This document shows positions 48,477-61,678 of a stretch of DNA of 64,000 bases, in pieces. Every line of letters starts with the position of its first letter. Positions within the stretch are counted from its first letter, which is position 1. A model generated the notes under the pieces. That model was given only the letters and a program-made list of their open reading frames with translations. It did not search any database and had not been told where the DNA came from. A program made the translations under genes and the position numbers. This DNA comes from Verrucomicrobiota bacterium (GTDB lineage: Bacteria > Verrucomicrobiota > Verrucomicrobiia > Verrucomicrobiales > V1-33), in NCBI GenBank assembly GCA_040386695.1, contig JAZKFB010000009.1, positions 47,436 through 111,435 of the forward strand, read 5' to 3'.

Positions 48477-49367
48477 GTGCCGGAATCCCTTGCCGCATCC
48501 GCCGTGTCTCCCGGAAACCCCATCCCCCCCTCTCCACCCCCTGAATCCATTCCGCCGCCATGCACTGGATTCGGATGCACGGAAAATGGCCCCACTGTGC
48601 TGCTGCTGGTGGAGGACAATGCCATCAATGCCCGCGTCTCACAGCTGTTTCTGGATAAATCCGGCTTCCGCGCCGACCACGTGACCAACGGCGCGGAGGC
48701 GGTGGAGAAGTTCCGCCGCGGCCATTATCCCGGGGTGCTCATGGACTGCCATATGCCGGTGATGGACGGCTACGAGGCTTCCCGCGCCATCCGCGCGATG
48801 GAGGCTTCCCCGGGCTGGGACCGGCCGCGCTGCCGCATCATCGCCATGACCGCCAATGTCCTGAGCGGGGAACGCCAGCGCTGCCTGGACGCCGGAATGG
48901 ATGATTACGTTCCCAAACCGATCAAGCAGGCGGAGCTGGCGGCGGCATTATCCATGCTTTTTCCGGCCGGGGCCGCCGAGCCGGCCTCCGTGACGGAGGT
49001 GGATGAAAGCCTTCATGCCGCGCTGCGGCAGCTGGCGGACGAGCTTGGCGAGGAGAATGTGGTGGATTTGCTGTCGGAGTGGATGGCGGATTTTCCCAAC
49101 GCCTTCGCGGATCTCACGCGGCTGGCGGGCGGACCGGAGCAGCCCGAGATGCGCCGCGCGGCCCATTCACTGAAAGGCAGCAGCTCGCTCTTCGGCCTGA
49201 AGGATATGGAGGATCTCCTGAACCGCCTGGAACAGCTGGCCGCGCAGGACGAAAAGCCGGAGCAGGAGGGCATGGTGCGGGAGCTCGACACCGAATGGCG
49301 GCGGGTGAAGCCGCTGCTGGAGGCGGAGATGGCGGCTTTGAGGCTTCAGGCGGAGAACGGCGTATGA
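48477..49367 (+). CDS. response-regulator receiver + Hpt phosphotransfer protein
   Basis: GTG start. REC: VLLLVEDNAINARV...VLMDCHMPVMDG...IIAMTAN...YVPKPI. Hpt: RRAAHSLKGSSSLFG. The stop overlaps the next gene (ATGA 49364-49367). Confidence 0.85.
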   Translation: MPESLAASAVSPGNPIPPSPPPESIPPPCTGFGCTENGPTVLLLVEDNAINARVSQLFLDKSGFRADHVTNGAEAVEKFRRGHYPGVLMDCHMPVMDGYEASRAIRAMEASPGWDRPRCRIIAMTANVLSGERQRCLDAGMDDYVPKPIKQAELAAALSMLFPAGAAEPASVTEVDESLHAALRQLADELGEENVVDLLSEWMADFPNAFADLTRLAGGPEQPEMRRAAHSLKGSSSLFGLKDMEDLLNRLEQLAAQDEKPEQEGMVRELDTEWRRVKPLLEAEMAALRLQAENGV

Positions 49368-50596
49368 GAATTCTTTTTGTCCACGAAAGATTCGGCGCCC
49401 TTGGCGGCGCGGAGGCCAATATCATCACCGTGGCCCGGGCTCTCGCGGCGCGCGGTCACACCTTGGGCATTCTGCACGGATCCGACACCGGACGCGGCGG
49501 AGCGGACTGGCGGACGGTTTTTCCGGACCGCTTTCCGCTTCCGGAATCCCCCGGGGAAACGGCGGAGGCCACGCGCCGGGCGTTGAACGATTTCGCGCCG
49601 GACGCCGTTTATGTTCACAAAACAGCGGATTCCGCCGTGATCCTTGCCCTGACAGAAAGCGGTTTGCCTCTGGCAAGGATGGTGCATGATCACGATATTT
49701 ACTGCATGCGCAGCTATAAATACAACTACTTCACCCGCCGCATCTGCACGCGGCCGGCGACGTTGTACTGCGTTTACGGCTGTCTGGCGTGTGTGGCCAA
49801 AGAAACCGGCCCGGACGGAAAAAGACATCTGCGCTGGGTGAGCTACCGCGCCAAAAAGCGGGAAATCCGCCTCAACCGACGGATTCAGCGGATGCTGGTG
49901 GCCTCCGAATACATGCGCCAGGAGCTGCTCCGGAACGGATTTGATCCGCGCCGCATTGAAATCCACGCCCCCATCCCGCGCTCCGCCGAAAGCAGCCTGC
50001 GGAGCAGTTTTTCGGACCGGAATCTGATTCTGTTCGCGGGCCAGATCATCCGGGGAAAAGGGGTCGATCTGCTGCTGCGGGCACTGGCGGAAATGCGGGA
50101 GCCCTTTGAATGCGTGATTCTGGGGGATGGGAATCACCGGGCGGAATGCGAGGAGCTGAGCCGTGCCCTGGGGCTGTCGGACCGGGTGGCGTTCAAGGGG
50201 TTTGTCCCGCAGGAGGAGCTGCGGAACTTTTACGGCAACTGCTCGGCGGTGGCTTTCAGCAGCGTGTGGCCGGAGCCGTTCGGCGCGGTGGGGCCGGAGG
50301 TGATGCGCTACGCGCTGCCGGTGGTGGCTTTTGACGCCGGCGGGGTCAGCGAATGGCTGATCGACGGGCAGAACGGCTATCTGGTGCCGTGGGGCGATGT
50401 CCCGGCTTTCGCGGCGCGGCTGGACGGGCTGATGCGCGACAAGGCCAAGGCGCGGGAGCTGGGGGAGAACGGCTTCCGGTTTGTCACCGGACGCTTCGAC
50501 TTCGACCGTTACATCAGCGGGCTGGAATCCCTTTTCACCCGCCTCGCCGCCGAAGTGGCGGACTCCCCACCCTCAACCCCCGTTCCGGTCCCCTGA
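49364..50596 (+). CDS. glycosyltransferase family 4 (GT-B, Glycos_transf_1)
   Basis: MRILFVHERFGALGGAE... N-terminus. C-terminal EPFGAVGPEVMRYALPVVAFDAGGVSEWLIDGQNGYLV (E-x7-E motif). Confidence 0.88.
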   Translation: MRILFVHERFGALGGAEANIITVARALAARGHTLGILHGSDTGRGGADWRTVFPDRFPLPESPGETAEATRRALNDFAPDAVYVHKTADSAVILALTESGLPLARMVHDHDIYCMRSYKYNYFTRRICTRPATLYCVYGCLACVAKETGPDGKRHLRWVSYRAKKREIRLNRRIQRMLVASEYMRQELLRNGFDPRRIEIHAPIPRSAESSLRSSFSDRNLILFAGQIIRGKGVDLLLRALAEMREPFECVILGDGNHRAECEELSRALGLSDRVAFKGFVPQEELRNFYGNCSAVAFSSVWPEPFGAVGPEVMRYALPVVAFDAGGVSEWLIDGQNGYLVPWGDVPAFAARLDGLMRDKAKARELGENGFRFVTGRFDFDRYISGLESLFTRLAAEVADSPPSTPVPVP

Positions 50597-51354
50597 TGCT
50601 GAGCGATGCGGAATTATCCAACCGGATGGCGGGCCGGATCGCCGGGGCCGGGCATCCGTGGGGACGGCTGCGCCTGCGCGCCTACATGGCCTGGAAGCGG
50701 ATGGCGTGGCAGCTCACCGTCGGTTCCTCGCGGCTGCTGAAGCGGCTGCTGGATGTGTCGGTGGCGGGCATCATGCTGCTGGCGCTCTCCCCGCTGCTGC
50801 TGCTGACCGCCTGGATGGTCCGGCGCGACGGCGGGCCGGTGTTTTTCAAACAGGTGCGCGTGGGCCACGGCGGCCGGGAATTCGGCATGCTGAAATTCCG
50901 GAGCATGGTGGTGAACGCGGAGGCGGCGCTGAAGGACCTGCTGGCCCGGAACGAGAAGCAGGATGGCGTGACCTTCAAAATGAAGGACGATCCGCGCATC
51001 ACCAAAGTCGGGAAAATCATCCGCCGCACCTCCGTGGATGAGCTGCCGCAGCTGATCAATGTCCTGCGCGGGGAAATGTCCCTCGTCGGCCCGCGGCCGC
51101 CGCTGCCCCGGGAAGTGGCGCTGTATTCCCAGGAGGACCGCCGGCGGCTGCTGGCGACGCCGGGTCTGACGTGCCTCTGGCAGGTCGGCGAGCGGTCCGG
51201 AAAGCTTTTTGAGATCGGCGACCGCAATCAGATTGAATTTCCGGAGCAGGTGGCGCTGGATGTGCGTTACATTGAAAGCCAGTCCGTGATGAAAGATCTG
51301 GTGATTCTCCTGAAAACGGTGCCGGCGGTGCTGCTGGGGAAGGGGGGCGCATGA
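50596..51354 (+). CDS. undecaprenyl-phosphate sugar-phosphate transferase (Bac_transf/WbaP-EpsL type), initiating enzyme
   Basis: TM then GGPVFFKQVRVGHGGREFGMLKFRSM..DPRITKVGKIIRRTSVDELPQLINVLRGEMSLVGPRPPLPRE..TPGLTCLWQV. ATG 50596 shares 1 nt with the previous TGA. Confidence 0.9.
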   Translation: MLSDAELSNRMAGRIAGAGHPWGRLRLRAYMAWKRMAWQLTVGSSRLLKRLLDVSVAGIMLLALSPLLLLTAWMVRRDGGPVFFKQVRVGHGGREFGMLKFRSMVVNAEAALKDLLARNEKQDGVTFKMKDDPRITKVGKIIRRTSVDELPQLINVLRGEMSLVGPRPPLPREVALYSQEDRRRLLATPGLTCLWQVGERSGKLFEIGDRNQIEFPEQVALDVRYIESQSVMKDLVILLKTVPAVLLGKGGA

Positions 51355-52616
51355 CGGTGCCGGCGGCGGAGCGCGTGATCCTCATCTGCCCGGACATCCG
51401 TGCCGGGCTGGAGCTGCTGGCGGCCGGCGGTCCGACGGCGCTGGCGGCGTTTCTGGGCAAGCCGCTGCTGGACCATGCGCTGGACGGGCTGGCCCGGCGG
51501 GGGGTCCGGGAGGTGCTGCTGCTGGTCAGCGCGGGACCGGAGGAAATCCGCCAGTTCGTGGAGGGCGGGCACGCCTGGGGCCTTTCCCTGCGGGTGGCCA
51601 CGGAGAGCGCCGAACTTTCCCCGGCAGCGGCGGCGGCGAAACACGCCGGTTTTCAGGCTCAGGAGATTCTGACCCTGGACACATTGCCCCAGGCCCCTGA
51701 AGTCCCGCTGCTGTCGGGACCGGAGGCCTGGCACAAAGCCCGGGCGCTGCTGCTGCCCATTCTCGCGCCCACGATGATCGGCACCCGGGAAGTCAGTCCG
51801 GGAATCTGGGTCGGTTTGAGAGCTCAGGTGGACCCCACCGCCGTGCTGACCGCGCCCTGCTGGATCGGCCCCGCCGCCCGGGTCAGCCGCCGGGCGAAAG
51901 TGCGGGGATTTGTGGAGGAGGGCTCCATCGTGGACCACGACGCCGTGGTGGAGGACAGCACCCTGGGACCGGGCACCTGCCTGGGGGCCATGACCCTGCT
52001 GCGGAATTCCCTGGCCATGGGCAGCCATCTGCTGAACTGGCGCACGGGTTCCGCCACGCATCTGACGGATGCTTTTCTGCTCGCGCCGCTGGCGGCCGCC
52101 GCTCCCGCTCCGGCTTCCCCGCCCGCCCGGGCGGCGGCGCTGGCGGTGCTGCTGCTCACATGGCCGGTGCTGATCCTGGCCGCCGTGAAAGGCGGACCGC
52201 TTTTCAGGACCGCCCTCGCCGCCCGCGGCCGCCGGCTGCACGGTCCGCCGGGGAATCCGGTGAGATACGGTGAAATCGCCGCTTTCACCAGCCTGTGGCG
52301 CCGGTGGCCGATGCTCTGGAATATTGTGACCGGGGACTTCGCCTGGACCGGGAATCCGCCGCTGACGCCGGAGGAGGCCGCCGGGCTCAGCGGGGAGTTC
52401 GAGCTCCGCTGGCTGACCGCGCCCACGGGAATTTTCACGGCCCCGGAGACGGAAGGCAGCCTGCCGCCCTGGGATGACACCGCCAAAGCCCACGCCGCTC
52501 TTTTCGCCGGACGCGCCGATGCCGCGTGGCGGCGGCGGATTCTGCTTCATGGCCTGCAGTCCCTGCTGCGCCGTCCGGCTTCCCCCGGCCCGGAAACCGC
52601 CTCCGCCTCTCTTTGA
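51351..52616 (+). CDS. fusion protein: nucleotidyltransferase-like N-domain + beta-helix-like middle + divergent Bac_transf-like C-domain
   Basis: N-terminus VILICPD..LAAFLGKPLLDHALDGLARRGVREVLLLVS has the NTP_transferase fold pattern but no GxGTR. C-terminus ..GPLFRT..RWPMLWNIVTGDFAWTGNPPLTPEE parallels the neighbouring enzyme's DELPQLINVLRGEMSLVGPRPPLPRE. Confidence 0.65.
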   Translation: MTVPAAERVILICPDIRAGLELLAAGGPTALAAFLGKPLLDHALDGLARRGVREVLLLVSAGPEEIRQFVEGGHAWGLSLRVATESAELSPAAAAAKHAGFQAQEILTLDTLPQAPEVPLLSGPEAWHKARALLLPILAPTMIGTREVSPGIWVGLRAQVDPTAVLTAPCWIGPAARVSRRAKVRGFVEEGSIVDHDAVVEDSTLGPGTCLGAMTLLRNSLAMGSHLLNWRTGSATHLTDAFLLAPLAAAAPAPASPPARAAALAVLLLTWPVLILAAVKGGPLFRTALAARGRRLHGPPGNPVRYGEIAAFTSLWRRWPMLWNIVTGDFAWTGNPPLTPEEAAGLSGEFELRWLTAPTGIFTAPETEGSLPPWDDTAKAHAALFAGRADAAWRRRILLHGLQSLLRRPASPGPETASASL

Positions 52617-52631
52617 TTTTTTATCACCCCG

Positions 52632-52943
52632 ATGTCACCCAATATCATGAAACCACAGGAAAACGCCCTGAATCTCACCGCGCCTCCTGAACTCACCGCG
52701 AATGACGCCTCCGCGCTCCGCGACAAGGCGAAGCTCCGGTTCACGGAAAACTTCACGGATATCAATCTCGACTGCTCCCACCTCGGCTTCATTGATTCCA
52801 GCGGTCTGGGCGCCCTCATTTCCCTGCAGAAACTCGCGGCCCAGCGGGGCGGGAATCTGCGGCTTCTTCAGCCTCAGGCGGCGGTGATTCAAATCCTGGA
52901 ACTCACGCGCCTGCACCGTATCTTCGAAATCGTCCCCGGCTGA
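52632..52943 (+). CDS. STAS-domain anti-sigma-factor antagonist (SpoIIAA/RsbV/HsbA-like)
   Basis: 103 aa. ..DCSHLGFIDSSGLGALISLQK...LRLLQPQAAVIQILELTRLHRIFEI: DSSG phospho-serine motif and STAS C-terminal helices. Confidence 0.88.
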   Translation: MSPNIMKPQENALNLTAPPELTANDASALRDKAKLRFTENFTDINLDCSHLGFIDSSGLGALISLQKLAAQRGGNLRLLQPQAAVIQILELTRLHRIFEIVPG

Positions 52944-52966: not shown

Positions 52967-54757
52967 ATGAGTTCATCCCCAAGGAACGACCCCTCCCTCA
53001 CCATCACCAACGGAGCGGAGGAGGGAACCGCGTGGCGCTGGAGCGGCGAACCCGCGCTCACGGCCGTGCGCGAGGCCGCTGTCAGCGCGCGGACTTTTCT
53101 GAAACGCCAGGGCCTGACGGAGGACGATCTGAACGCCTGGGAACTGGTGCTCACCGAGGCCGCCAACAACGTGGTGCTGCACATGCCGCCGGAGCGCGCG
53201 GCGGATTCATGGAATCTCCACCTTTTTGTGACCTCCGGCGAGGTCACGGCCACGCTGACGGACCACTCGCCCGGGTTTGACTGGCCGGACAAGGTGGAGC
53301 TGCCGGACGTGGACTCGGAGTCGGGCCGCGGCCTGTTCATCATCAAGGAGATGACCGACTCCCGCTATTATCTGCGCGGCCCCCAGGAGAATGTGCTCAC
53401 GCTGGTGCGCGGGCGGCAGGCCTCGGGCCGCATCACGGCGGAGGACCATACCGGCGCTTTCACCGAGGAGCAGAAGCAGGAGCTGGAGAGCACTCTGGAC
53501 CACATGACGGAGGAGCTGGGCGCGGCTTATGAAAGCCTGTCCGCGATTTTCCGGTTCAGCTCCGAAAGCAACCGCATCACCGATCTGTCGGCTTTCACGG
53601 CCACCCTGCTGGACCACCTGGCCACCGTCACCCAGTCGGACTGCGGCGTGATCCGCACCGTGGGGGAGGACGGCGGTTTTAAAACGCTGGCCATGAAAGG
53701 CTGCGTGTCCTCCCCGGACGCGCCGGACGGCGGCGACTTTGACAGTCTGGAGAAAGCGGCCATCGCCTCCCGCGAGGACCAGTGGATCGATCCGGCGACT
53801 TTCAAAGGCGCTTCGGAAATCATGTCCGGGCTGGTGCACCCTTTTTACGAGGGCGACACCCTCATGGGCACGCTCAGCCTCGGGCGCCGGAAGCTGACCG
53901 AACCCATGCGGGCGGGGGAGGTGAATGTGGTGCACACCTTCTCGGAATTCCTGGCCCAGCACATCGTCCGCCGCCGGCACGAGGAGCAGGCTCTGAAGGC
54001 CAGCGCCGTGAAACGCGAGCTTGAGCTGGCGGCGTCCATCCAGCGCTCGCTGCTGCCGCGCTCCATGCCCACCATTCCCGGGCTGGAGCTTTCCGCCCAC
54101 TGCGAAAGCGCGATGGATGTGGGCGGTGATTTTTACGGCGTGCTGCCGTGGGGGCAGACGGGCCTGTTTTTCATGATGGCCGATGTCATGGGCAAAGGGG
54201 TCGGGGCCTCCATGATGGCGGCGGTCACCCGTTCCGTGCTGCGCTCCGTGCCCCAGTTTTACACGGATCCGGGTTCGGTGCTGACCCAGACCGCGAAGTT
54301 CCTTTTCGAGGATCTGGACCAGCTGGAAATGTTCGTCACCGCCGTGGTGGGCACGGTGGACATTCCCTCCGGGGAAGTGCGGCTGGCCAGCGCGGGGCAC
54401 TGTCCGGTGCTCATCGCCATGCCGGACGGGGAAGTGCATGAGATTCCGGCCAGCGGTCCGCCGCTGGGGCTGATGGAGGTGATTGAATACCCGTCCACCA
54501 TCATGCCCTTCCCGCCGGGATCGCGGATGCTGGTTTTCACCGACGGCCTCACGGACCCGCGCGACGGGCGCGGCGCGTTCGCCTCGCACACGGAGCTCGC
54601 CGACTGGCTGCTGGCGAACGCCGCCGGTTCCGGCACCGCCGCCAATCTGCACCAGGCCCTGCTGCAGCGGCTGCGGCTGCACAGCGCCACCGCGCCGCTG
54701 GCCGATGACCAGACTTTCCTCATCCTTCACAGGCTTGACGCCTCCCCTCTTTCCTGA
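52967..54757 (+). CDS. tri-domain partner-switching enzyme: RsbW/SpoIIAB-like Ser kinase (HATPase_c_2) + GAF-like + PP2C/SpoIIE phosphatase
   Basis: N-terminus: WELVLTEAANNVVLH..LTDHSPGFD..SGRGLFIIKEMTD. Middle about 150 aa is GAF-like (..QSDCGVIRTV..LMGTLSLGRRK). C-terminus: ELAASIQRSLLP, MDVGGDFYGV, FFMMADVMGKGVGASMMAA, SAGHCPVLI, VFTDGLTD. Confidence 0.85.
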   Translation: MSSSPRNDPSLTITNGAEEGTAWRWSGEPALTAVREAAVSARTFLKRQGLTEDDLNAWELVLTEAANNVVLHMPPERAADSWNLHLFVTSGEVTATLTDHSPGFDWPDKVELPDVDSESGRGLFIIKEMTDSRYYLRGPQENVLTLVRGRQASGRITAEDHTGAFTEEQKQELESTLDHMTEELGAAYESLSAIFRFSSESNRITDLSAFTATLLDHLATVTQSDCGVIRTVGEDGGFKTLAMKGCVSSPDAPDGGDFDSLEKAAIASREDQWIDPATFKGASEIMSGLVHPFYEGDTLMGTLSLGRRKLTEPMRAGEVNVVHTFSEFLAQHIVRRRHEEQALKASAVKRELELAASIQRSLLPRSMPTIPGLELSAHCESAMDVGGDFYGVLPWGQTGLFFMMADVMGKGVGASMMAAVTRSVLRSVPQFYTDPGSVLTQTAKFLFEDLDQLEMFVTAVVGTVDIPSGEVRLASAGHCPVLIAMPDGEVHEIPASGPPLGLMEVIEYPSTIMPFPPGSRMLVFTDGLTDPRDGRGAFASHTELADWLLANAAGSGTAANLHQALLQRLRLHSATAPLADDQTFLILHRLDASPLS

Positions 54758-54775: not shown

Positions 54776-55198
54776 ATGGCCAGACTGATCATCGCTGAAG
54801 ACGAAACCCACATGCTGCGGCTGCTGGAGATGACCCTCCGCAAACACGGCCACACGTGGACCGTCTGCCGCAACGGCCAGGAAGCCGTGGACCGCGCCCG
54901 GGAACAGCCGGCGGACTGCATCATCATGGATGTGATGATGCCCGTCATGGACGGGCTCACGGCGCTGGCGGAGCTTAAAAAAATGGAATCCGTCCGCGAT
55001 ATTCCCGTGATCATGCTCACGGCGCGCGGCCAGTTCATCGACCGCGAACAGGCCCGGTCCTCGGGCGCGGCGGTTTTCCTGACCAAACCCTACTCGCCCA
55101 CGGAACTGCTCAATCACATTCAGCGGCTCACCACCCCCGCTGTTCCGGCTCCGGCTCTCCCGCCCGCCGCCGCCGCGTCCGCCGAACAACCCTCATGA
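54776..55198 (+). CDS. single-domain response regulator (CheY-like)
   Basis: ARLIIAEDE..., DCIIMDVMMPVMDG, IPVIMLTARG, FLTKPYSP. The Ala/Pro tail overlaps the next gene (ATGA 55195-55198). Confidence 0.9.
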   Translation: MARLIIAEDETHMLRLLEMTLRKHGHTWTVCRNGQEAVDRAREQPADCIIMDVMMPVMDGLTALAELKKMESVRDIPVIMLTARGQFIDREQARSSGAAVFLTKPYSPTELLNHIQRLTTPAVPAPALPPAAAASAEQPS

Positions 55199-56352
55199 AA
55201 GACACGCTTCATCTCTTCATCATGATCGACGCCTGCGGGTGGGAGATCCTCCGGGGCCGCCCGTTTCTGAAGGATCTCGCGCCGCACCGGCGGAAGCTGG
55301 AGAGCGTCTTCGGCTACAGCTCCACCTGCGTGCCCAGCATTCTGTCGGGCCACTGGCCCGACGAGCACCGGAACTGGTGCTACTTCGTTTACGACCCCGC
55401 GAATTCCCCCTTCAAATCCCTGCGCTGGCTGCGCTGGCTGCCCACCGCCATCACCGGCCGCCGGAGGTTCCGCCACCGGCTGTCAAAGTTCGTGAAGGTG
55501 AGGCTGAACTTCCGGGGCTACTTCGATTTGTATAACATCCCGTTCAAGTTCATCGATCTTTTCGATTTCTCGGAGAAGAAAACCCCATTGAGGCCCAAGG
55601 GCATGAACCGCGGAACGAATATCTTCGACCTCCTGGAGGAGGCCAAGGTGCCGTATTTCACCACGGATGACAGCCGGCCGGAGATCGAAAACCGGGACCG
55701 TCTGATCGCGGACCTGGAGGCCCGGCGCATCGATTTCGCTTTCATGTACTGGGCGGGCCTCGATGGCCTGCTGCACATGGTCGGCAATGACTCCCCGAAG
55801 ATCGCGGACAAGCTGAACCTGTACGAGGAGTGGATCACCAAAACCATGGAGACCGCCCGGCGGAACTACAAAAACGTGAAGCTTCACGTCTTCAGCGACC
55901 ACGGCATGGCCAACTGCGATGTGCTGGTGGACCTGCGCAAAACCATAGAGGCTCTGCCGCTGGAGTTCGGCGTGGACTATGTCGCCGTTTACGACAGCAC
56001 CATGGGGCGCTTCTGGTTCCTCACCGACAAGGCCCGTCCGCTTATCGAGCAGGCGCTGGCGGGAGTGAGGGAGGGGCGCGTGATGCCGGAGGAGGAGCTG
56101 CGGCATTACCGCGCGTTCTTTGAGGACGGCCATTTCGGCCAGCTGATTTTCCTCATGAGGGAGGGCGTGCTCATCGTGCCCAGCCACATGGGCGAGCGCC
56201 CCATCCGCGGCATGCACGGCTATCACCCGACGGATCCGCAGAGCTACGCCACCCTGCTGACCAACTATGAGGAGGTGCCGGACCACATCACGCACATTCC
56301 GCACATTCACCGGCTGATGGAGAACGCGCTGCCGGCCAAAGCGACCGCATGA
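55195..56352 (+). CDS. alkaline-phosphatase-superfamily enzyme (type I phosphodiesterase/nucleotide pyrophosphatase-like)
   Basis: Metal/nucleophile motifs in order: LFIMIDACGWE, YSSTCVPSILSGHWPDEH, VFSDHGM, GMHGYHP. Confidence 0.8.
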   Translation: MKDTLHLFIMIDACGWEILRGRPFLKDLAPHRRKLESVFGYSSTCVPSILSGHWPDEHRNWCYFVYDPANSPFKSLRWLRWLPTAITGRRRFRHRLSKFVKVRLNFRGYFDLYNIPFKFIDLFDFSEKKTPLRPKGMNRGTNIFDLLEEAKVPYFTTDDSRPEIENRDRLIADLEARRIDFAFMYWAGLDGLLHMVGNDSPKIADKLNLYEEWITKTMETARRNYKNVKLHVFSDHGMANCDVLVDLRKTIEALPLEFGVDYVAVYDSTMGRFWFLTDKARPLIEQALAGVREGRVMPEEELRHYRAFFEDGHFGQLIFLMREGVLIVPSHMGERPIRGMHGYHPTDPQSYATLLTNYEEVPDHITHIPHIHRLMENALPAKATA

Positions 56353-57611
56353 ACCGCCGGATCGTCCATGTCCCCCGCCGCTTCACCGCCCAGGACTGGG
56401 GCGGGACGGAAACCGTTATTCTCGAAACCGCCAGACGCCAGCAGGCGGAGGGAGCGGATCCCGTGATCCTGACCTCCATGGCCCTGGCGGCGGAAAAGTC
56501 GGAGGTCATCGGCGGCATTCCCGTGAAGCGCTTCCGGCACGTCTATCCGTTTTTCGGGCTCAGCGCGGCGGACAAAGCGGCGCTGGATCTGAAGGGCGGC
56601 AATCTGCTGTCCCTGCCGCTGTTTTACGGACTCTGGCGCGAGCCTGACGTGCGGCTGTTTCACGCGCACACCCTGAAACGGCTGGGCGGCACCGTGCGCA
56701 CCGTGGCCCGGCTGCGGAAAAAACCGTATGTCGTCTCCCTGCACGGCGGCGTCTTTGACGTGCCGGCGGCGGAGCGGGGCGACCTGGCGCGGCCGGTGGA
56801 GGGCAAATTCGAGTGGGGCCGCCCGTTCGGCGCGCTGCTGGGCGCCCGCAGGGTGCTCCAGGAGGCGGATCATGTGATCTGCGTCGGTCAGAGCGAGGCT
56901 GAAAAAGCGGCGGCGGAGCTGAATCACGGACGCGTCAGCTACCTGCCGAACGGCGTGGACTCCGCCCGCTTCACCCAGGGGGACGGCGCAGGATTCCGCC
57001 GGGAGAACGGCATTCCGGAAAACGCTTTTCTGCTGCTGGCCATGGGCCGCATCGACGCCCAGAAAAACCAGCTCGGGCTGCTGGAGGCGTTTTTGAAATT
57101 CCACGCCAAAGTCCCGGAGGCGCGCCTGCTGATTCTCGGCCCGGTGACGCAGCCGGCTTACGCGGAGAAGCTGCACGAATTCATCCGCGCGAACCATCTG
57201 ACGGACAGCGCGCGGATTCTGCCCGGCCTGCCGAACCACAGTCCGGCGCTGGTGGACGCGTTTCACGCGGCGGATGTGTTTGTCCTGGCCTCGCGGCACG
57301 AGCCCTTCGGCATCGTGGTCCTGGAGGCCTGGTGCGCGGGCTGCGCGGCGGTGGTCAGCCGCGTCGGCGGACTGCGCGCCCTGGTCCGGGAAAATGAGAC
57401 CGGCCTGATGTTTGACCCCGGCGCCGCCGATGCCGCGGACCAGCTGGCGGCCTGTCTTTTCCGCCTCCACGCCGATCCCGCCGCGCGCCGCGCCCTGGGG
57501 GAGGCCGGAAAGGCGGAGGCTCTGGCCCATTATGACTGGTCGCGCATCTCCGCGCGGCTCGAAAACGTTTACCGGCAGGCGGAGGAGAACTGCCGCTCCC
57601 GCCTGAAATGA
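56349..57611 (+). CDS. glycosyltransferase family 4 (GT-B)
   Basis: ..WGGTETVILE.. N-domain. EPFGIVVLEAWCAGCAAVVSRVGGLRALVRENETGLMF (E-x7-E). ATGA overlaps at both ends. Confidence 0.88.
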   Translation: MNRRIVHVPRRFTAQDWGGTETVILETARRQQAEGADPVILTSMALAAEKSEVIGGIPVKRFRHVYPFFGLSAADKAALDLKGGNLLSLPLFYGLWREPDVRLFHAHTLKRLGGTVRTVARLRKKPYVVSLHGGVFDVPAAERGDLARPVEGKFEWGRPFGALLGARRVLQEADHVICVGQSEAEKAAAELNHGRVSYLPNGVDSARFTQGDGAGFRRENGIPENAFLLLAMGRIDAQKNQLGLLEAFLKFHAKVPEARLLILGPVTQPAYAEKLHEFIRANHLTDSARILPGLPNHSPALVDAFHAADVFVLASRHEPFGIVVLEAWCAGCAAVVSRVGGLRALVRENETGLMFDPGAADAADQLAACLFRLHADPAARRALGEAGKAEALAHYDWSRISARLENVYRQAEENCRSRLK

Positions 57612-59167
57612 ACACTGACGACGTCAAGAAAGCCGCCTGGCGCGGAGCCCTCTACAACTACGGCAGGGTGGTGGTGCGCATCGGCCTCGGGCTGGTGACT
57701 TTCCGCCTGCTTTTCCAGGGCCTGACACCGGAGGAGTTCGGCTTCTGGTCGCTGATGTGGAGCGTGTTCGGTTATGGTATTCTCCTCGATTTCGGCTTCG
57801 GCTACGCCGCCCAGCGCCGCGTCGCCCAGGGCCTGGCGAACCGTGACTGGCCGGCGCTGAGCCATGCGCTGAGCACCATTTTTTTCTTCTACTTCGGCGC
57901 CGCCCTGGTCATCGCCGGGCTGGGCTGGATGCTGGCGGAGCCCATGATGCACTGGTTCGGCGTGCCCGATGAAAGACGCGCCATCTTCAAGCCGGTGACC
58001 GTGGTGTTCTTCGCAGGCATGGCCCTGGGATTCCCGCTGGGGGTGTTTCCGGAAGTGCTGCGCGGGCTTCAGAAAAGCGACACCGTCAACCGCATCAACA
58101 TGTGCGGACTGGTGGCCAACGCCATTCTCGTGGCCCTCGCGCTGCATTTTCGCTGGGGCCTGATGTCCGTGTTTGTCATCGCCCTGGGCTGCGTGCTGAT
58201 CCCCGACCTCATCGCCGGCCGCGCGGCCTTCAAAGCCATGCCCGAGGTCCGGCTGCGGCCGTCGCTGTTCCGCATGAGCGATCTGCTCTCGACCGGGAAA
58301 TTCTCGCTCTTCGCGTGGCTGAACATGATCTCCAATCTGCTGCGCAACAAAATGGACCAGGTCATTGTCGGCGGCCTCGTGGGTCTGCCGGCGGTGGCGC
58401 TCTACCAGTCGGGCGGCAAAGCCGGCGAGATGTTCGGCATTATCACCCGGCAGATCGCGGACGCCCTCAGTCCCGCCGCCGCCTTCCTCCACGCTGATGC
58501 CCGGGTGGAGGCGCTCCGGGAAATGCTGGTGAAGGGCGTGCGCCTGACGGTGCTGGTGGCGGCGCCGTTTTATGTCGGCGGCGCGCTTTATCTGGATCTG
58601 ATGGTGCGGCTGCTGACGGGCATGAAGGCCCCGGCTTCGGAGACGCTGATTGTGGGGGAAATCCTCCTCTTCTGGTATTTCCACCTGTCGATCACGCACC
58701 TCGTTTTCAAAAATATGTTCATGATGTGCGGCCACGAGCGGAAGCTGATGTGGCAGAGCCTCGGCGAGGCGGCGCTGAATATCCTGCTCAGCGTGGGCCT
58801 GACCCTGTGGAGCAAAAGCATCATCGGCGTGGCGGCGGGCTCGGTGCTGCCGACGGTTTATTTCGGCTGGTTCATGCTGTGGCGCTGGGCCTCGGTGGAG
58901 GCGGCGGTGGGCAAATGGGAGCTGTTCCGGCTCACGGCCCTGCGTCCCATCCTCGGCTGCGTGCCCATGATCCTCACCGGCGTGCTCTTCCGGCTGACCA
59001 TCGGGCCCCGTTTCGGCCAGCCGGAGTGGCTGCCCTGCCTGATCGGCATGGCCGTCACCGGCGTGGCCGCCGTGCTCGGCCTGTGGTTCATCGCTCTGAC
59101 TCCGGAGGACCGCAAAGGCCTGGTCTCCCGGCTGCCGGCCCGTTTCCGCCCCGCCTCCCTGCGTTGA
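57608..59167 (+). CDS. polysaccharide flippase (Wzx / MOP superfamily)
   Basis: 519 aa with about 12-14 TM segments. N-terminal ..YNYGRVVVRIGLGLVTFRLLFQGLTPEEFGFWSL.. is typical of Polysacc_synt/Wzx. Confidence 0.8.
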   Translation: MNTDDVKKAAWRGALYNYGRVVVRIGLGLVTFRLLFQGLTPEEFGFWSLMWSVFGYGILLDFGFGYAAQRRVAQGLANRDWPALSHALSTIFFFYFGAALVIAGLGWMLAEPMMHWFGVPDERRAIFKPVTVVFFAGMALGFPLGVFPEVLRGLQKSDTVNRINMCGLVANAILVALALHFRWGLMSVFVIALGCVLIPDLIAGRAAFKAMPEVRLRPSLFRMSDLLSTGKFSLFAWLNMISNLLRNKMDQVIVGGLVGLPAVALYQSGGKAGEMFGIITRQIADALSPAAAFLHADARVEALREMLVKGVRLTVLVAAPFYVGGALYLDLMVRLLTGMKAPASETLIVGEILLFWYFHLSITHLVFKNMFMMCGHERKLMWQSLGEAALNILLSVGLTLWSKSIIGVAAGSVLPTVYFGWFMLWRWASVEAAVGKWELFRLTALRPILGCVPMILTGVLFRLTIGPRFGQPEWLPCLIGMAVTGVAAVLGLWFIALTPEDRKGLVSRLPARFRPASLR

Positions 59168-59322: not shown

Positions 59323-60216
59323 ATGAGTGTTCCCCTGATCAGCATCATCATGCGCTCCTACAACGAGGCCTGGGCGCTGCGCGAAACCCTGCCCGCGCTG
59401 CGGGCGCAGGAATACCGGAACTGGGAGCTGATCGTCATCGACAGCGGCTCCACCGACGGATCGCCGGACCTGATCCGCGCGGCCTCGCCGGCGCATTTCA
59501 TCGAAATCGCCTCAAAGGACTACAACCCCAGCCGGGTCATGAACCACGGCATGAGGCTGGCCAAAGCCGATCGCTGCCTGTTCCTGAACGCCGACGCCAC
59601 GCCGCAGGGACCCAACTGGCTGCGGCCCCTGGCGGAGGCTCTGCTGGACCCGAAAGTGGCCGCTGTCTTCAGCCGCCAGATTCCCCGGCCGGACTGTCAG
59701 GCGGTGTTCGCCGCCGACTACGACCGGTGCTTCGGCCCCAACCGCGACTCCGTGAACTGGGACCACTTTTTCAGCATGGTCAGCAGCGGCCTGCGGCGGG
59801 ACGTCTGGGAAAAACGCGGTTTCCGCGAGGACCTGCAATACGCCGAGGACGACGAATACACCCGCTGGTGCCGCCAGCAGGGTTACGAGGTCAAATACGT
59901 CCCGGAATCCGTGGCCATGCACAGCCACAACTACACCCCCGCGCAGTTTTACAAACGCTGCCTCGGCGACGCCCGGTCCATGGCCACGACCTATCCGGGC
60001 AAGGAATCGGACTTCACCTGGCCGCGCATGGTCCTGCTTCCCTGGATTCTCGACGTCCGCCGCGACGCCGTCTGGTGCGCGAAACACGGCCGGCTCTCCG
60101 AACTCCCCCACGCCGCCCGCCTCCGCTGGTCCCAGCGCCGCGGCAAACTCGCCGGCTTCCGCCAGGGCTGGAAGGACTACCGCACCGGCAAGGTGTGGGA
60201 AAAGCCGCCCGCCTAG
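59323..60216 (+). CDS. glycosyltransferase family 2
   Basis: MSVPLISIIMRSYNEAWALRETLPALRAQEYRNWELIVIDSGSTDGS..FLNADA: GT2 N-terminal signature with DxD-like NAD. ATG 59323 lies after the inverted repeat. Confidence 0.88.
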   Translation: MSVPLISIIMRSYNEAWALRETLPALRAQEYRNWELIVIDSGSTDGSPDLIRAASPAHFIEIASKDYNPSRVMNHGMRLAKADRCLFLNADATPQGPNWLRPLAEALLDPKVAAVFSRQIPRPDCQAVFAADYDRCFGPNRDSVNWDHFFSMVSSGLRRDVWEKRGFREDLQYAEDDEYTRWCRQQGYEVKYVPESVAMHSHNYTPAQFYKRCLGDARSMATTYPGKESDFTWPRMVLLPWILDVRRDAVWCAKHGRLSELPHAARLRWSQRRGKLAGFRQGWKDYRTGKVWEKPPA

Positions 60217-60292
60217 CCTTCCTCCGCCCCGGAAACCTGGTCCGCGTGTCCCGGAGCTTGAAGGTCCGGCCCGGGACGGCTACTGGAGGCGG

Positions 60293-61678
60293 ATGATTTT
60301 CCGCTTTCCGCTCCGCACCGCCGTTTTCCTCCTTGTGACCGCCGCCACGGCCACCGCGGAGGTGAAGGTGGATAATTTCAAACCGCAGGATCTGGTGCGG
60401 CATTCCGTGGTTCTGATCCGCGGTGAGGTGGAGGCCGGGGCGGAGAAGCTGACCCTGCGCACGGCCAAAGGCACGGCCAGGCCGGTGGAAAGCTCCGGCC
60501 TGGTGCAGGACGGGAAATTCAAGGCTCTGCTGGAACTGGCTCCGGGCGACAACACCATCGAGCTGAAAACCGAGAAATCGGCTTTGCCCGCGAAGCTGCG
60601 GATCACCTACAAGCCGATGACCAATCCGCATTACGTGCGGCTCATCTGGCTGGCGGATTCGACGGGGAAAACGGACTACGCAACCCCCGAGGACGACTTC
60701 CCGCAGAACTACGAGGCCCGCATGGCCACCGCCGCGCTGCTGCTCCAGTGCTTCACGGCGGAGCGCATGCAGGAACTCGGCTACGGCCGGCGCACGTTCC
60801 GGCTGGAGACCGACCGCGCGGGCAGGGTGGTGGTGCACACCATCAAGGCACCCCAGCCGGTGGAGCATTATCTGGAGATGGGGGACGGCCAGCGGATCTG
60901 GGGGGAGCTGAATCATTTCATCAACTCCCGCTATTCCGACAAATACGCCAAGAACCTCGCGCTGATGTCCTTCACCCGCAAAGACCCGGAGACCGGCCGC
61001 ATGCTGGCGCACACGGCGCTGGGCGGGGGCAATCTCGGACTGTTCGGCAGCGCCTCGATTTTCTCCTGGCCGGACAGCGTGGAATCCGTGCAGAAGGCGT
61101 TTCTGGACGAGCGGAAATACGACGTGTCCCGGGTTCACGACGACAGCGTGGGGCGCGGCACTTACTGGGGCCTGGCCTCCACGACCCTGGGAGCGACGCT
61201 TCATGAAATGAGCCACGCCTTCGGCCTGCCCCACTGCAAGGACAGTCGCTGCATCATGACGCGCGGCTTTGACCGGCTGAACCGTTTCTTCACGCTCAAT
61301 GAGAAACTTCCCGGCCAGGAGGTGAAAAAATTCGCCGCCGACTCCGAGGCCTGGTTCGCCCCGGTCAGCGCCTCGCGGCTGCGCTGGAGCCCGTGGTTCC
61401 AGCCGGAGGATCCCCGCCTGCGCCCGGATCCGAAACCGGAGATCACTTTCGACGCCAAAAAAAACGCCGTCACCATCGAGGCCCGCGCCGGACTCCGGGT
61501 GCTGGGCTTCTGGGACGGATCGGACATCCGGGGATTTCAGGAATACCGCGACAAGGCTCCCCGGAAAGTCACCCTGACCCTGGAGGAGATCGCGGCGGCC
61601 AACGAGGGCAAAACGCCCGGTAAAATCACGGCTGTGGACGAAAACGGCCGCGACGGGGAGCTGGATCTGAAGAAGTGA
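60293..61678 (+). CDS. secreted zinc metalloprotease-like protein with archaemetzincin-type signature
   Basis: Signal MIFRFPLRTAVFLLVTAATATA. HEMSHAFGLPHCKDSRCIM fits HExxHxxGx3Cx4CxM. The long N-terminal beta-rich region is unrecognised. Confidence 0.7.
   Translation: MIFRFPLRTAVFLLVTAATATAEVKVDNFKPQDLVRHSVVLIRGEVEAGAEKLTLRTAKGTARPVESSGLVQDGKFKALLELAPGDNTIELKTEKSALPAKLRITYKPMTNPHYVRLIWLADSTGKTDYATPEDDFPQNYEARMATAALLLQCFTAERMQELGYGRRTFRLETDRAGRVVVHTIKAPQPVEHYLEMGDGQRIWGELNHFINSRYSDKYAKNLALMSFTRKDPETGRMLAHTALGGGNLGLFGSASIFSWPDSVESVQKAFLDERKYDVSRVHDDSVGRGTYWGLASTTLGATLHEMSHAFGLPHCKDSRCIMTRGFDRLNRFFTLNEKLPGQEVKKFAADSEAWFAPVSASRLRWSPWFQPEDPRLRPDPKPEITFDAKKNAVTIEARAGLRVLGFWDGSDIRGFQEYRDKAPRKVTLTLEEIAAANEGKTPGKITAVDENGRDGELDLKK

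What the first reader, a model, noticed from the sequence alone, without database searches (positions are those of the whole stretch)
48477..61678. His-Asp phosphorelay and partner-switching module spliced into a translationally coupled polysaccharide operon, with no sigma factor present
Thirteen co-directional genes run REC-Hpt, GT4, initiating sugar-P transferase, NTP-transferase-like/Bac_transf-like fusion, STAS, RsbW-kinase/GAF/PP2C, CheY, AlkP-family enzyme, GT4, Wzx-like flippase, GT2, metzincin-like protein. Regulatory and biosynthetic genes are physically coupled. ATGA overlaps occur at 49364, 51351, 55195, 56349 and 57608, there is a 1-nt overlap at 50596, and only 15-23 nt gaps surround the STAS and PP2C genes. 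The component set (Hpt, REC, PP2C, HATPase-type Ser kinase, STAS) is that of the Pseudomonas HptB-HsbR-HsbA pathway and of RsbU/V/W modules. Here, however, the domains are split and fused differently, and no sigma factor, FlgM-like protein or diguanylate cyclase output is encoded nearby. My inference is that the STAS protein, or the kinase it sequesters, acts directly on an enzyme of the locus, giving post-translational gating of exopolysaccharide initiation or export. This arrangement is not known to me as a described system. It may also connect to the PEP-CTERM cargo proteins elsewhere in the window.
Basis: partly seen in the sequence, partly recalled or inferred. Interest (0 to 1): 0.72.

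Follow-up and report, generated by a model that had tools for sequence, protein, structure and literature searches.

The report
Phospho-switch built into a polysaccharide operon
A Verrucomicrobial sugar-polymer operon carries its own serine-phosphorylation switch (a STAS protein, a fused kinase/phosphatase and a His-Asp relay), which probably turns polymer synthesis on and off at the enzyme level; this resembles the Vibrio Syp and cyanobacterial All4160 systems but is wired differently.

Summary
Window 48477-61678 carries 12 (not 13) co-directional genes with the stated domains, and every stated overlap and gap was verified. No sigma factor, FlgM or diguanylate cyclase lies in or next to the cluster.

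The arrangement is old and conserved rather than a recent splice. In 81 Verrucomicrobiota loci, STAS precedes the kinase-GAF-PP2C gene in 73/79 and a single-domain receiver follows it in 70/79. 40 of 52 loci with enough flank sit among the same polysaccharide genes.

Gene 4 is a pseudoenzyme: an NDP-sugar-pyrophosphorylase-like domain, a beta-helix and a PglC-like phosphoglycosyl-transferase (PGT) fold that has lost its catalytic Asp-Glu. It is always joined tightly to the true initiating PGT and lies directly upstream of STAS. STAS is fused to it in a Rubritalea lineage. In other relatives the STAS domain is fused to a WecG glycosyltransferase.

This supports post-translational control of polysaccharide synthesis, most likely at initiation. 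The concept is already described: SypA/SypE in Vibrio fischeri, STAS-PGT All4160/HenR in Anabaena (2026), and EpsW-EpsZ in Myxococcus (2025). The PEP-CTERM link is unsupported.

Verdict: a new variant of a known kind, of moderate interest.

The parts
48477..49367 (+). REC-Hpt phosphotransfer protein. The start is uncertain: GTG 48477 by the gene caller, with alternatives at 48504 and 48597; the REC domain begins at aa 43.
   Evidence: Pfam Response_reg 2.3e-22 and Hpt 9.9e-11. The receiver Asp (LMDCHMP) and the HSLKG His motif are read from the translation. A homologue lies upstream in 23/49 related loci, and in Haloferula it is part of a hybrid HK.
49364..50596 (+). GT4 glycosyltransferase
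   Evidence: Pfam Glycos_transf_1 2.1e-35. ATGA overlap with REC-Hpt. Orthologue upstream in 20/50 loci.
50596..51354 (+). Small monotopic phosphoglycosyl transferase (Bac_transf), the initiating enzyme. The catalytic VDELPQL motif is present.
   Evidence: Pfam Bac_transf 3.1e-63. NCBIfam EPS_sugtrans 1.9e-78. Motif read. Present in 39/59 loci.
51351..52616 (+). NTL: NDP-sugar-pyrophosphorylase-like domain, left-handed beta-helix and PglC-like pseudo-PGT domain. The Asp-Glu dyad is replaced by x-Arg, and the N-terminal Gly-rich loop is absent.
   Evidence: Family Pfam hits: Hexapep 16/16, NTP_transferase 13/16, Bac_transf 3/16. BLASTP to the neighbouring PGT, E=4e-4, across the DELPQ region. 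AF2 model plus Foldseek: MurU/RmlA/GMPP/eIF2B for the N-terminus and PglC 8e37_A for the C-terminus, TMt 0.58. R318 and W319 are nearly invariant. The junction to the PGT is within +-30 nt in 41/41 loci.
52632..52943 (+). Single-domain STAS protein with the phospho-acceptor Ser56 (FIDSSGLG)
   Evidence: Pfam STAS 4.2e-15. TIGR00377 anti-sigma-factor antagonist 1e-16. Aligns to RsbV 6m36_B across the DS[ST]GLG motif. The Ser is conserved in 87/87 orthologous STAS sequences. Lies upstream of the kinase-PP2C gene in 73/79 loci.
52967..54757 (+). Fused RsbW-type Ser kinase, coiled coil, GAF, coiled coil and SpoIIE-type PP2C phosphatase
   Evidence: Pfam HATPase_c_2 1.6e-17 and SpoIIE 8.7e-40. GAF in family members. 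Invariant N/G-box and PP2C Asp motifs. PDB sequence relatives: Rv1364c, SiaA, SpoIIE, RsbW, SpoIIAB. AF2 pLDDT 80.5; Foldseek SiaA TMt 0.82 and SpoIIAB TMt 0.83.
54776..55198 (+). Single-domain (CheY-like) receiver with an intact Asp52, Thr and Lys
   Evidence: Pfam Response_reg 1.4e-26. Residues read. Lies downstream of the kinase-PP2C gene in 70/79 loci, within +-30 nt in 67/70.
55195..56352 (+). Cytoplasmic alkaline-phosphatase-superfamily enzyme (Phosphodiest/NPP-like); substrate unknown
   Evidence: Pfam Phosphodiest 7.8e-17 over the full length. No NCBIfam hit. Weak match to ENPP5 only. Among the most conserved genes, 55-72% identity in the loci that have it, present in 43/71 loci. ATGA-type overlap with REC possible in 18/29.
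56349..57611 (+). GT4 glycosyltransferase
   Evidence: Pfam Glycos_transf_1 3.6e-30. Orthologue in 24/56 loci.
57608..59167 (+). Wzx/MATE-like polysaccharide flippase
   Evidence: Pfam MatE 2e-15 and Polysacc_synt_3 1.5e-12. Present in 25/52 loci.
59323..60216 (+). GT2 glycosyltransferase, preceded by a 155-nt gap
   Evidence: Pfam Glycos_transf_2 1.4e-21. The overlapping ORF 59259-60296 has no hit. Present in 30/48 loci.
60293..61678 (+). Probably secreted putative metallopeptidase (PF12044). Co-directional but probably not part of the unit.
   Evidence: Pfam Metallopep 4.6e-84. No homologue in any of the 81 related loci.
61688..63694 (-). Membrane sensor histidine kinase, convergent; the candidate input of the relay
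   Evidence: Pfam HisKA 4.7e-21 and HATPase_c 2.4e-29. H-box SHELRTPLN read. HK homologues lie upstream of REC-Hpt in several related loci, and the two are fused as a hybrid HK in Haloferula and L085.

Best explanation
This is a conserved Verrucomicrobial operon for a Wzx-dependent surface polysaccharide that carries its own serine-phosphorylation switch.

Shown:
- All catalytic and phospho-acceptor motifs are intact. These are the STAS Ser56, the kinase N/G boxes, the PP2C Asp motifs, the receiver Asp residues, the Hpt His and the HK H-box.
- The gene order GT4 - PGT - NTL - STAS - kinase/GAF/PP2C - REC is conserved down to about 32-35% identity.

Inferred mechanism:
1. The membrane histidine kinase (61688-63694) passes phosphate through REC-Hpt to the single-domain receiver.
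2. The receiver, together with a ligand sensed by the GAF domain, sets the balance between the kinase and phosphatase activities of the 596-aa protein.
3. That balance decides whether STAS Ser56 is phosphorylated.
4. By analogy with SypA and All4160, unphosphorylated STAS is the active form. It acts directly on the initiation machinery rather than on a sigma factor. That machinery is the small PGT (50596-51354) and its translationally coupled pseudoenzyme partner NTL (51351-52616). The effect is to gate the first membrane-committed step of polysaccharide synthesis.
For: - Domains and motifs.
- Synteny in 81 loci from many Verrucomicrobiota species: STAS 73/79, REC 70/79, NTL 44/66, PGT 39/59, AlkP 43/71. 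Among 52 loci with enough flank, 30 have the full cassette and 10 a partial one.
- The polysaccharide context is spread over the whole kinase-PP2C tree, which suggests it is ancestral.
- The most divergent NTL homologue (32% identity) still sits in GT4-PGT-NTL-STAS-K/PP2C-REC, next to a hybrid HK, a Wzy and a sigma-54 activator.
- NTL is a pseudo-PGT. Its junction to the PGT is within +-30 nt in 41/41 loci, and overlap-type in 30/41.
- STAS is fused to NTL in Rubritalea marina and in a second sequence at 84% identity seen on 6 contigs.
- WecG-STAS glycosyltransferase fusions lie next to the kinase-PP2C gene in 12 loci. In L015 the stretch examined shows no stand-alone STAS ORF.
- No sigma factor was found in the cluster or in loci L001, L002, L084, L085 and L086.
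- Precedents: SypE (kinase-REC-PP2C) controls SypA Ser56 within the syp locus, acting below the level of transcription (PMC10120452, PMC4517449). [quoted passage not shown]
Against: - Nothing here is experimental, and no interaction was modelled or measured.
- The NTL-STAS fusion is confined to one Rubritalea lineage (1 of 46 loci).
- A short NTL form of about 287 aa lacks the pseudo-PGT domain, so that domain cannot be the universal STAS target.
- 12 of 52 homologous kinase-PP2C loci are not in a recognisable polysaccharide context.
- The receiver is missing in some loci.
- A sigma factor encoded elsewhere cannot be excluded.
- The direction of the switch (which STAS form is active) rests only on analogy.
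Confidence: 0.55

Rival explanations
1. Classical partner switching. The RsbW-like kinase domain sequesters a sigma factor encoded elsewhere in the genome. It could even be the primary sigma, as proposed for Chlamydia Rsb (from my own knowledge, not checked here). Unphosphorylated STAS would release that sigma factor, so control would be transcriptional.
For: The kinase domain and STAS are bona fide RsbW/RsbV relatives. 12 of 52 homologous triads lie outside polysaccharide loci, as a general regulator might. An ECF-sigma-like ORF exists in the window at 20601.
Against: No sigma factor lies in or next to the cluster or in five annotated related loci. The window's sigma-like ORF is of ECF type and lies 27 kb away behind unrelated genes. 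STAS domains fused to a glycosyltransferase or to NTL next to this kinase point to enzymes as the output.
Confidence: 0.15
2. The single-domain receiver is the real effector. Once phosphorylated through HK and REC-Hpt, it would bind the PGT (EpsW-EpsZ type) or the translationally coupled AlkP-like enzyme (a split PorX-like pair). The STAS/kinase/PP2C set would then be a separate or upstream input.
For: EpsW~P activates the PGT EpsZ directly (PMC12802240). The REC gene overlaps the AlkP gene (ATGA) here, and such an overlap is possible in 18/29 related loci. NCBIfam lists PorX among the REC matches.
Against: The PGT here is a small monoPGT of 252 aa, not a large one with the cytoplasmic domain used in the EpsZ model. 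REC is more tightly linked to the kinase-PP2C gene (67/70 within 30 nt) than to AlkP. In some loci AlkP directly follows kinase-PP2C without a REC gene. This model leaves the invariant STAS Ser unexplained. It is not exclusive of the best explanation.
Confidence: 0.15
3. The regulatory genes are only co-located passengers. They would control an unrelated process, for example the divergent T2SS-F-like gene or a general stress response, and the polysaccharide genes would be constitutive.
For: The function of none of these genes has been tested. Some homologous triads are in other contexts.
Against: The same interleaved order is kept across dozens of species at 35-50% identity, with tight or overlapping junctions. 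The T2SSF-like gene and the peptidase are not syntenic anywhere.
Confidence: 0.05

Closest known systems
Vibrio fischeri Syp regulation (SypA STAS; SypE kinase-REC-PP2C; SypF hybrid HK with Hpt; SypG sigma-54 regulator) inside the 18-gene syp polysaccharide locus
   Same: A STAS protein of about 100 aa with phospho-Ser56 is encoded inside a polysaccharide locus. One polypeptide carries an N-terminal RsbW-like Ser kinase and a C-terminal PP2C. Input comes from a His-Asp-His-Asp relay. There is no sigma-70-type (RsbW-partner) sigma factor as partner; in Syp the output is below the level of transcription and the target is unknown (PMC10120452, PMC4517449). Relatives L015 and L085 also have a sigma-54 activator next to the module.
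   Different: The central domain is GAF rather than REC, and the receiver is a separate downstream gene. HK and REC-Hpt are split and placed at opposite ends of the locus. There is no sigma-54 regulator in this window. The locus adds the NTL pseudoenzyme and an AlkP-like enzyme; I do not recall either from syp (from my own knowledge, not checked here). The phylum differs. Sequence orthology to SypA/SypE was not tested.
Anabaena PCC 7120 All4160 (STAS + Bac_transf PGT) with HenR (REC-PP2C) and the kinase Alr3423; XssP of Synechocystis
   Same: The phosphorylation state of a STAS domain is linked to a Bac_transf initiating enzyme and to polysaccharide production, with receiver-controlled PP2C activity and no sigma factor involved (PMC13555669).
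   Different: STAS here is a separate protein next to the PGT. In Rubritalea it is fused to the C-terminus of a pseudo-PGT protein, not to the N-terminus of an active PGT. Kinase and phosphatase are fused, and the receiver is separate. The authors regard STAS + Bac_transf proteins as rare outside cyanobacteria; this locus suggests the same logic in split form in another phylum.
Pseudomonas aeruginosa HptB-HsbR-HsbA
   Same: The same domain inventory: Hpt, REC, PP2C, HATPase-type Ser kinase and STAS.
   Different: The domain order and fusions differ. From my own knowledge, HsbR is REC-PP2C-kinase, whereas here the order is kinase-GAF-PP2C with a free REC. The known outputs FlgM and the cyclase HsbD are absent, and the genomic context is a polysaccharide operon.
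Myxococcus xanthus EpsW-EpsZ
   Same: A single-domain response regulator encoded with polysaccharide genes, and post-translational control at the initiating PGT (PMC12802240).
   Different: EpsZ is a large monoPGT, and that system has no STAS, kinase or PP2C. Here the PGT is small and is paired with a pseudo-PGT.
Bacillus RsbU/RsbV/RsbW and SpoIIE/SpoIIAA/SpoIIAB
   Same: Homologous STAS, GHKL Ser kinase and PP2C with the same catalytic motifs.
   Different: No sigma factor partner is encoded nearby. Kinase and phosphatase are in one chain. The module is embedded among biosynthetic enzymes.

Membership tests
Partner-switching module (RsbU/V/W, SpoIIE/AA/AB type) | STAS protein with a phosphorylatable Ser in a DS[ST]G motif | tested here: met
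   FIDSSGLG with Ser56. It aligns with the RsbV motif, and the Ser is conserved in 87/87 orthologues.
Partner-switching module (RsbU/V/W, SpoIIE/AA/AB type) | RsbW/SpoIIAB-type GHKL Ser kinase with N and G boxes | tested here: met
   HATPase_c_2 1.6e-17. E64, N67, N68, D99 and G120-R121-G122 are invariant. Foldseek SpoIIAB TMt 0.79-0.83.
Partner-switching module (RsbU/V/W, SpoIIE/AA/AB type) | SpoIIE/RsbU-type PP2C with metal-binding Asp residues | tested here: met
   SpoIIE 8.7e-40. D388, D406, D526 and D580-D581 are invariant. Foldseek SiaA PP2C TMt 0.82.
Partner-switching module (RsbU/V/W, SpoIIE/AA/AB type) | A sigma factor held by the kinase, usually encoded with the module | tested here: not met
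   None in the cluster or in five annotated related loci. The only sigma-like ORF in the window is of ECF type and lies 27 kb away. A partner encoded elsewhere cannot be excluded.
Syp-type regulation (V. fischeri SypA/SypE/SypF/SypG) | STAS gene inside a polysaccharide biosynthesis locus | tested here: met
   STAS lies between the PGT/NTL genes and the GT genes. This is conserved in 40/52 loci.
Syp-type regulation (V. fischeri SypA/SypE/SypF/SypG) | One protein with an N-terminal Ser kinase and a C-terminal PP2C | tested here: met
   HATPase_c_2 at aa 30-147 and SpoIIE at aa 398-589 of the 596-aa protein.
Syp-type regulation (V. fischeri SypA/SypE/SypF/SypG) | Central REC domain in that protein | tested here: not met
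   The centre is GAF flanked by long helices. REC is a separate gene at 54776-55198.
Syp-type regulation (V. fischeri SypA/SypE/SypF/SypG) | Hybrid sensor kinase with an Hpt domain, and a sigma-54-dependent regulator, in the locus | tested here: inconclusive
   HK and REC-Hpt are present but split. No sigma-54 activator was found among the window ORFs scanned, although one is present in relatives L015 and L085.
Syp-type regulation (V. fischeri SypA/SypE/SypF/SypG) | Sequence orthology to SypA and SypE | not tested
   The Syp sequences could not be fetched with the searches that remained.
Cyanobacterial STAS-PGT (All4160/XssP) with HenR | STAS fused N-terminally to an active Bac_transf domain | tested here: not met
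   STAS is free-standing. The only fusion found is C-terminal to the pseudo-PGT protein, in Rubritalea.
Cyanobacterial STAS-PGT (All4160/XssP) with HenR | Receiver-controlled PP2C plus a Ser kinase acting on the STAS Ser | not testable with these tools
   The domains and motifs are present. Activity needs biochemistry.
HptB-HsbR-HsbA (P. aeruginosa) | Hpt feeding a REC-PP2C-kinase protein, with STAS acting on FlgM or the cyclase HsbD | tested here: not met
   The domain set is present, but the architecture is kinase-GAF-PP2C with a free REC. No GGDEF (cyclase) or FlgM family turned up in the Pfam scans of the cluster proteins and the other window ORFs scanned.
Monotopic phosphoglycosyl transferase (PglC/WbaP superfamily), applied to gene 4 (NTL) | PglC-like fold with a re-entrant helix | tested here: met
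   Foldseek PglC 8e37_A, 181 columns, TMt 0.58. Bac_transf Pfam hits in 3/16 family members.
Monotopic phosphoglycosyl transferase (PglC/WbaP superfamily), applied to gene 4 (NTL) | Catalytic Asp-Glu dyad (DELPQ) | tested here: not met
   In the alignment to the neighbouring PGT, DE is replaced by RR. Across the family the pattern is x-R318-W319. The domain is therefore a pseudoenzyme.

The most novel reading that the evidence does not exclude
The NTase-like/beta-helix/pseudo-PGT protein (NTL) would be a previously unrecognised regulatory pseudoenzyme. It would pair with the small initiating PGT and serve as the docking site for unphosphorylated STAS. A partner-switching module would then directly gate the first committed step of polysaccharide synthesis. 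This would also give a concrete candidate class, the initiating PGT complex, for the target of SypA-type STAS proteins, which was still described as unknown in 2023 (PMC10120452). It would further show that STAS-PGT control is not confined to cyanobacteria.
Probability: 0.3. Interest if true: 0.7.

Novelty: new variant of a known kind. Interest (0 to 1): 0.5.

Why it matters
How bacteria ration undecaprenyl phosphate and nucleotide sugars among glycan pathways is an open question. Direct control of initiating PGTs has only just been shown, for EpsW-EpsZ in 2025 and All4160 in 2026.

This locus family would extend STAS-based control to a third phylum, in a split and genetically tidy form. It adds a conserved pseudo-PGT partner. 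Its natural fusions (STAS-NTL and STAS-WecG) nominate enzymes as the targets.

That makes the SypA-type target question directly testable. Cultured strains that carry the locus exist: Rubritalea marina DSM 17716, Haloferula sargassicola and Haloferula luteola.

Tried and rejected
- PEP-CTERM link: only one PEP-CTERM protein was found (2650-3462). No exosortase turned up in the window ORFs scanned. Dropped.
- Metallopeptidase and T2SS-F-like gene as members of the unit: neither has a homologue in any related locus. Dropped.
- WecG-STAS fusion in the window: tblastn found none.
- NTL-STAS fusion as a general feature: it occurs in only 1 of 46 loci, the Rubritalea lineage. It is kept as a hint only.
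- Internal terminators and promoters: the pattern scan found nothing convincing between the genes. One weak promoter-like site lies at 52621-52648, just before STAS; 5 sites were found against 2 expected.
- Recent insertion of the regulators: rejected, given uniform GC and deep synteny.
- No complex prediction tool was available, and the AF2 output gives no inter-domain error estimates. The natural fusion was therefore not modelled.
- Sigma factors in the 80 fetched loci were not scanned systematically. Only five loci have Pfam annotation, plus L015.
- The AlkP-like enzyme could not be assigned a substrate.

Full report
**1. Observation**

The window is GC-rich (about 0.60-0.69 in 2-kb windows), so many spurious ORFs overlap the real genes. 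Codon-position GC and Pfam/NCBIfam scans identify 12 co-directional genes on the + strand:

| Coordinates | Product |
|---|---|
| 48477-49367 | REC-Hpt |
| 49364-50596 | GT4 |
| 50596-51354 | Bac_transf phosphoglycosyl transferase (PGT) |
| 51351-52616 | 421-aa protein, here called NTL |
| 52632-52943 | STAS |
| 52967-54757 | HATPase_c_2 / GAF / SpoIIE-PP2C |
| 54776-55198 | single-domain REC |
| 55195-56352 | Phosphodiest (AlkP superfamily) |
| 56349-57611 | GT4 |
| 57608-59167 | Wzx/MATE-like flippase |
| 59323-60216 | GT2 |
| 60293-61678 | Metallopep PF12044 |

An independent gene call on a public copy of this contig gives the same models.

Minor corrections:
- There are 12 genes, not 13.
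- The GT2 lies in the frame of ORF 59266-60216.
- Gaps of 155 and 76 nt precede the last two genes.

A sensor histidine kinase lies convergently at 61688-63694. A T2SS-F-like gene lies divergently upstream.

**2. Wider window**

The other ORFs scanned in the window (not exhaustive; some had no Pfam hit) encode sugar catabolism and ABC transport proteins, Hsp70/DnaJ, a DAHP synthase, TPR proteins and the like. The only sigma-like ORF is of ECF type and starts at 20601, about 27 kb away. The only PEP-CTERM protein is at 2650-3462, and no exosortase was seen. The statement 'no sigma factor, FlgM or cyclase nearby' therefore holds for the cluster. The proposed PEP-CTERM link has no support.

**3. 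The regulators are intact**

- *Kinase-GAF-PP2C.* An alignment of the window protein with 11 homologues at 38-51% identity shows invariant kinase N- and G-box residues and invariant PP2C metal-binding Asp motifs.
  - Its closest solved relatives by sequence are Rv1364c, a P. aeruginosa response regulator identified as RssB, SiaA, SpoIIE, RsbW and SpoIIAB.
  - The AF2 model (pLDDT 80.5) matches the SiaA PP2C domain (TMt 0.82) and SpoIIAB (TMt 0.83).
  - The central region is GAF. The window protein scores E=0.034. 6-7 of the 12 aligned sequences hit GAF models, down to 4.5e-10. Long helices flank the region.
- *STAS.* It aligns to RsbV across DS[ST]GLG. Ser56 is conserved in 87/87 orthologous STAS sequences.
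- *Relay.* Both receivers keep the Asp/Thr/Lys set. The Hpt domain has HSLKG and the HK has SHELRTPLN (read).

**4. Gene 4 (NTL) is a pseudoenzyme**

- Pfam on 16 family members gives Hexapep 16/16, NTP_transferase 13/16, LbH_EIF2B 9/16 and Bac_transf 3/16.
- BLASTP against the neighbouring true PGT aligns the DELPQL region (E=4e-4), with Asp-Glu replaced by Arg-Arg. Across the family the pattern is x-R318-W319, nearly invariant.
- The AF2 model is moderate (pLDDT 65.7) and weak in the beta-helix. Foldseek still matches the N-terminus to MurU/RmlA/GDP-mannose pyrophosphorylase/eIF2B folds and the C-terminus to PglC (8e37_A, TMt 0.58).
- The N-terminal Gly-rich nucleotide loop of active nucleotidyltransferases is absent: the family has ICPD in that place (read; the motif expectation comes from my own knowledge).

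The added point is that the PGT-like domain lacks the catalytic dyad.

**5. Conservation**

The kinase-GAF-PP2C protein has very many homologues, and those that carry a source name are Verrucomicrobiota. A scan of one genome per species returned 544 relatives, of which the best 80 loci were kept. tblastn with the window's proteins gave these counts, each among loci with enough flank:

| Gene | Position relative to kinase-PP2C | Present |
|---|---|---|
| STAS | directly upstream | 73/79 |
| REC | directly downstream | 70/79 |
| NTL | upstream | 44/66 |
| PGT | upstream | 39/59 |
| AlkP | downstream | 43/71 |
| GT2 | downstream | 30/48 |
| Wzx | downstream | 25/52 |
| REC-Hpt | upstream | 23/49 |

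- Of 52 loci with enough flank on both sides, 30 have the full PGT+NTL...AlkP frame, 10 have part of it and 12 have none.
- On a neighbour-joining tree the polysaccharide context is spread over all major branches, and the context-free loci are nested within them. The embedded arrangement therefore looks ancestral rather than a recent splice.
- The most divergent NTL homologue found (32% identity) still sits in GT4-PGT-NTL-STAS-K/PP2C-REC, preceded by a hybrid HK, a Wzy and a sigma-54 activator.
- Junctions are tight everywhere. PGT to NTL is within +-30 nt in 41/41 loci and overlap-type in 30/41. K/PP2C to REC is within +-30 nt in 67/70.
- The metallopeptidase and the T2SS-F-like gene are never syntenic.

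**6. Clues to the target**

- STAS always follows NTL, which always follows the PGT.
- In Rubritalea marina, NTL and STAS form one 511-aa protein. A second sequence at 84% identity, seen on six contigs, has the same fusion, so it is not an assembly error. It is nevertheless lineage-specific: 1 of 46 loci.
- Twelve related loci carry a WecG/TagA-family glycosyltransferase fused to STAS close to the kinase-PP2C gene.
- In L015 the order is sigma-54 activator, K-GAF-PP2C, REC, WecG-STAS-STAS, and none of the scanned ORFs from 5.4 to 18.7 kb is a stand-alone STAS. There the glycosyltransferase-borne STAS is the obvious substrate.
- No sigma factor appears in any annotated neighbourhood.

**7. Mechanism proposed**

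Motif integrity and synteny are shown. Everything below is inferred.

1. HK passes phosphate to the REC of REC-Hpt, then to Hpt, then to the free REC.
2. REC~P and a GAF ligand set the kinase/phosphatase balance of the 596-aa protein.
3. That balance sets the phosphorylation state of STAS Ser56.
4. Unphosphorylated STAS engages the PGT/NTL initiation complex (in relatives, the attached glycosyltransferase) and gates the first committed step.

The direction of the switch is taken from SypA and All4160 by analogy only.

Weak points:
- A short NTL form lacks the pseudo-PGT domain.
- Some loci lack the REC gene.
- A quarter of homologous triads lie elsewhere in the genome.

**8. Rivals**

- (a) Classical sigma sequestration, with the sigma factor encoded elsewhere.
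- (b) The free receiver acts directly on the PGT, as EpsW does on EpsZ (PMC12802240). Alternatively it acts on the overlapping AlkP-like enzyme as a split PorX-like pair; PorX is among the NCBIfam matches of the REC.
- (c) Mere co-location.

Rival (b) is compatible with the main model. Rival (c) is hard to reconcile with the synteny.

**9. Comparison with known systems**

- *V. fischeri Syp* is the closest overall.
  - A 105-aa STAS protein (SypA, Ser56) and a kinase-REC-PP2C protein (SypE) are encoded inside the syp locus.
  - They are fed by a hybrid-kinase relay.
  - They act below the level of transcription on a target still described as unknown (PMC10120452, PMC4517449, PMC8256260).
  - The present system swaps the central REC for GAF, frees the receiver and splits the kinase from REC-Hpt.
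- *Anabaena All4160* is a STAS + Bac_transf PGT whose STAS phosphorylation, set by HenR (REC-PP2C) and the kinase Alr3423, controls heterocyst polysaccharide. Its authors consider STAS + Bac_transf proteins rare outside cyanobacteria (PMC13555669). The Verrucomicrobial loci appear to use the same logic with separate genes and a pseudo-PGT.
- *HptB-HsbR-HsbA* shares the domain inventory only.

I found no paper describing this Verrucomicrobial arrangement or a pseudo-PGT partner. Absence from the held library is not proof.

**10. Verdict**

This is a new variant of a known kind, with moderate interest (0.5). Its value lies in nominating a concrete target class for SypA-like STAS proteins and in extending STAS-PGT control to another phylum.

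Noticed in passing
window 20601-22796 (+), overlapping the upstream end of ORF 18591-21434 (-): An ECF-type sigma factor signature (Sigma70_r2 and r4 at aa 23-179) opens a 731-aa ORF. Either the sigma factor has a long C-terminal extension or the ORF is over-extended. On the other strand, the Hsp70 domain begins only at aa 385 of a 947-aa ORF.
   Followed up: no
window 2650-3462 (+): A 270-aa protein with a C-terminal PEP-CTERM sorting signal (E=1.3e-4). No exosortase was seen among the window ORFs scanned. It lies about 45 kb from the cluster.
   Followed up: partly
window 41977-43965 (-): A fusion of Planctomycete cytochrome c (PSCyt1, two copies) with an FGE-sulfatase (formylglycine-generating-enzyme-like) domain.
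   Followed up: no
window 24665-27880 (+) and 24210-24716 (-): A 1071-aa protein whose only hit is a PPDK_N (ATP-grasp-like) domain, next to a Uma2-family putative endonuclease.
   Followed up: no
window 60293-61678 (+): A putative metallopeptidase (PF12044, E=4.6e-84) with a hydrophobic, signal-peptide-like N-terminus. It abuts the convergent histidine kinase gene with 9 nt between the stops and is absent from all related loci.
   Followed up: partly
L002/L018 5088-6623 (Rubritalea marina); proteins P0175 and P0176: A natural fusion of the NTL pseudoenzyme with STAS (511 aa), found only in this lineage. A sister Rubritalea sequence (P0177, 407 aa) is unfused.
   Followed up: yes
L015 12298-13767; also L001, L002, L008, L009, L019, L023, L033, L047, L054, L072, L076: WecG/TagA-family glycosyltransferases fused to one or two STAS domains lie next to the kinase-GAF-PP2C gene. 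L015 also has a divergent sigma-54-dependent response regulator and a Wza-like export protein.
   Followed up: partly
L043 7512-11728: A tandem duplication of the STAS plus kinase-GAF-PP2C pair within one polysaccharide locus. Several subdivision-3 loci (for example L017, L022, L024, L045) have two tandem STAS genes.
   Followed up: no
L084 8886-13407 and L086 6631-7260: A PRK (uridine-kinase-like) gene recurs next to the STAS/kinase-PP2C module. In L084 the triad sits between PRK and a phosphofructokinase gene, with no polysaccharide genes nearby.
   Followed up: no
record titles of L006, L012, L027, L074 (Akkermansia muciniphila MAGs), L024 (Cyanophyceae), L039 and L059 (Bifidobacteriaceae): These MAG labels look doubtful. 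The loci group with Verrucomicrobiales or subdivision-3 sequences in gene order and similarity, which suggests mis-binning or mislabelling.
   Followed up: no
window 52621-52648 (+): A weak sigma-70-like promoter match (9/12) lies immediately before or over the STAS start. The scan found 5 sites in the region against 2 expected, so it may be chance.
   Followed up: no
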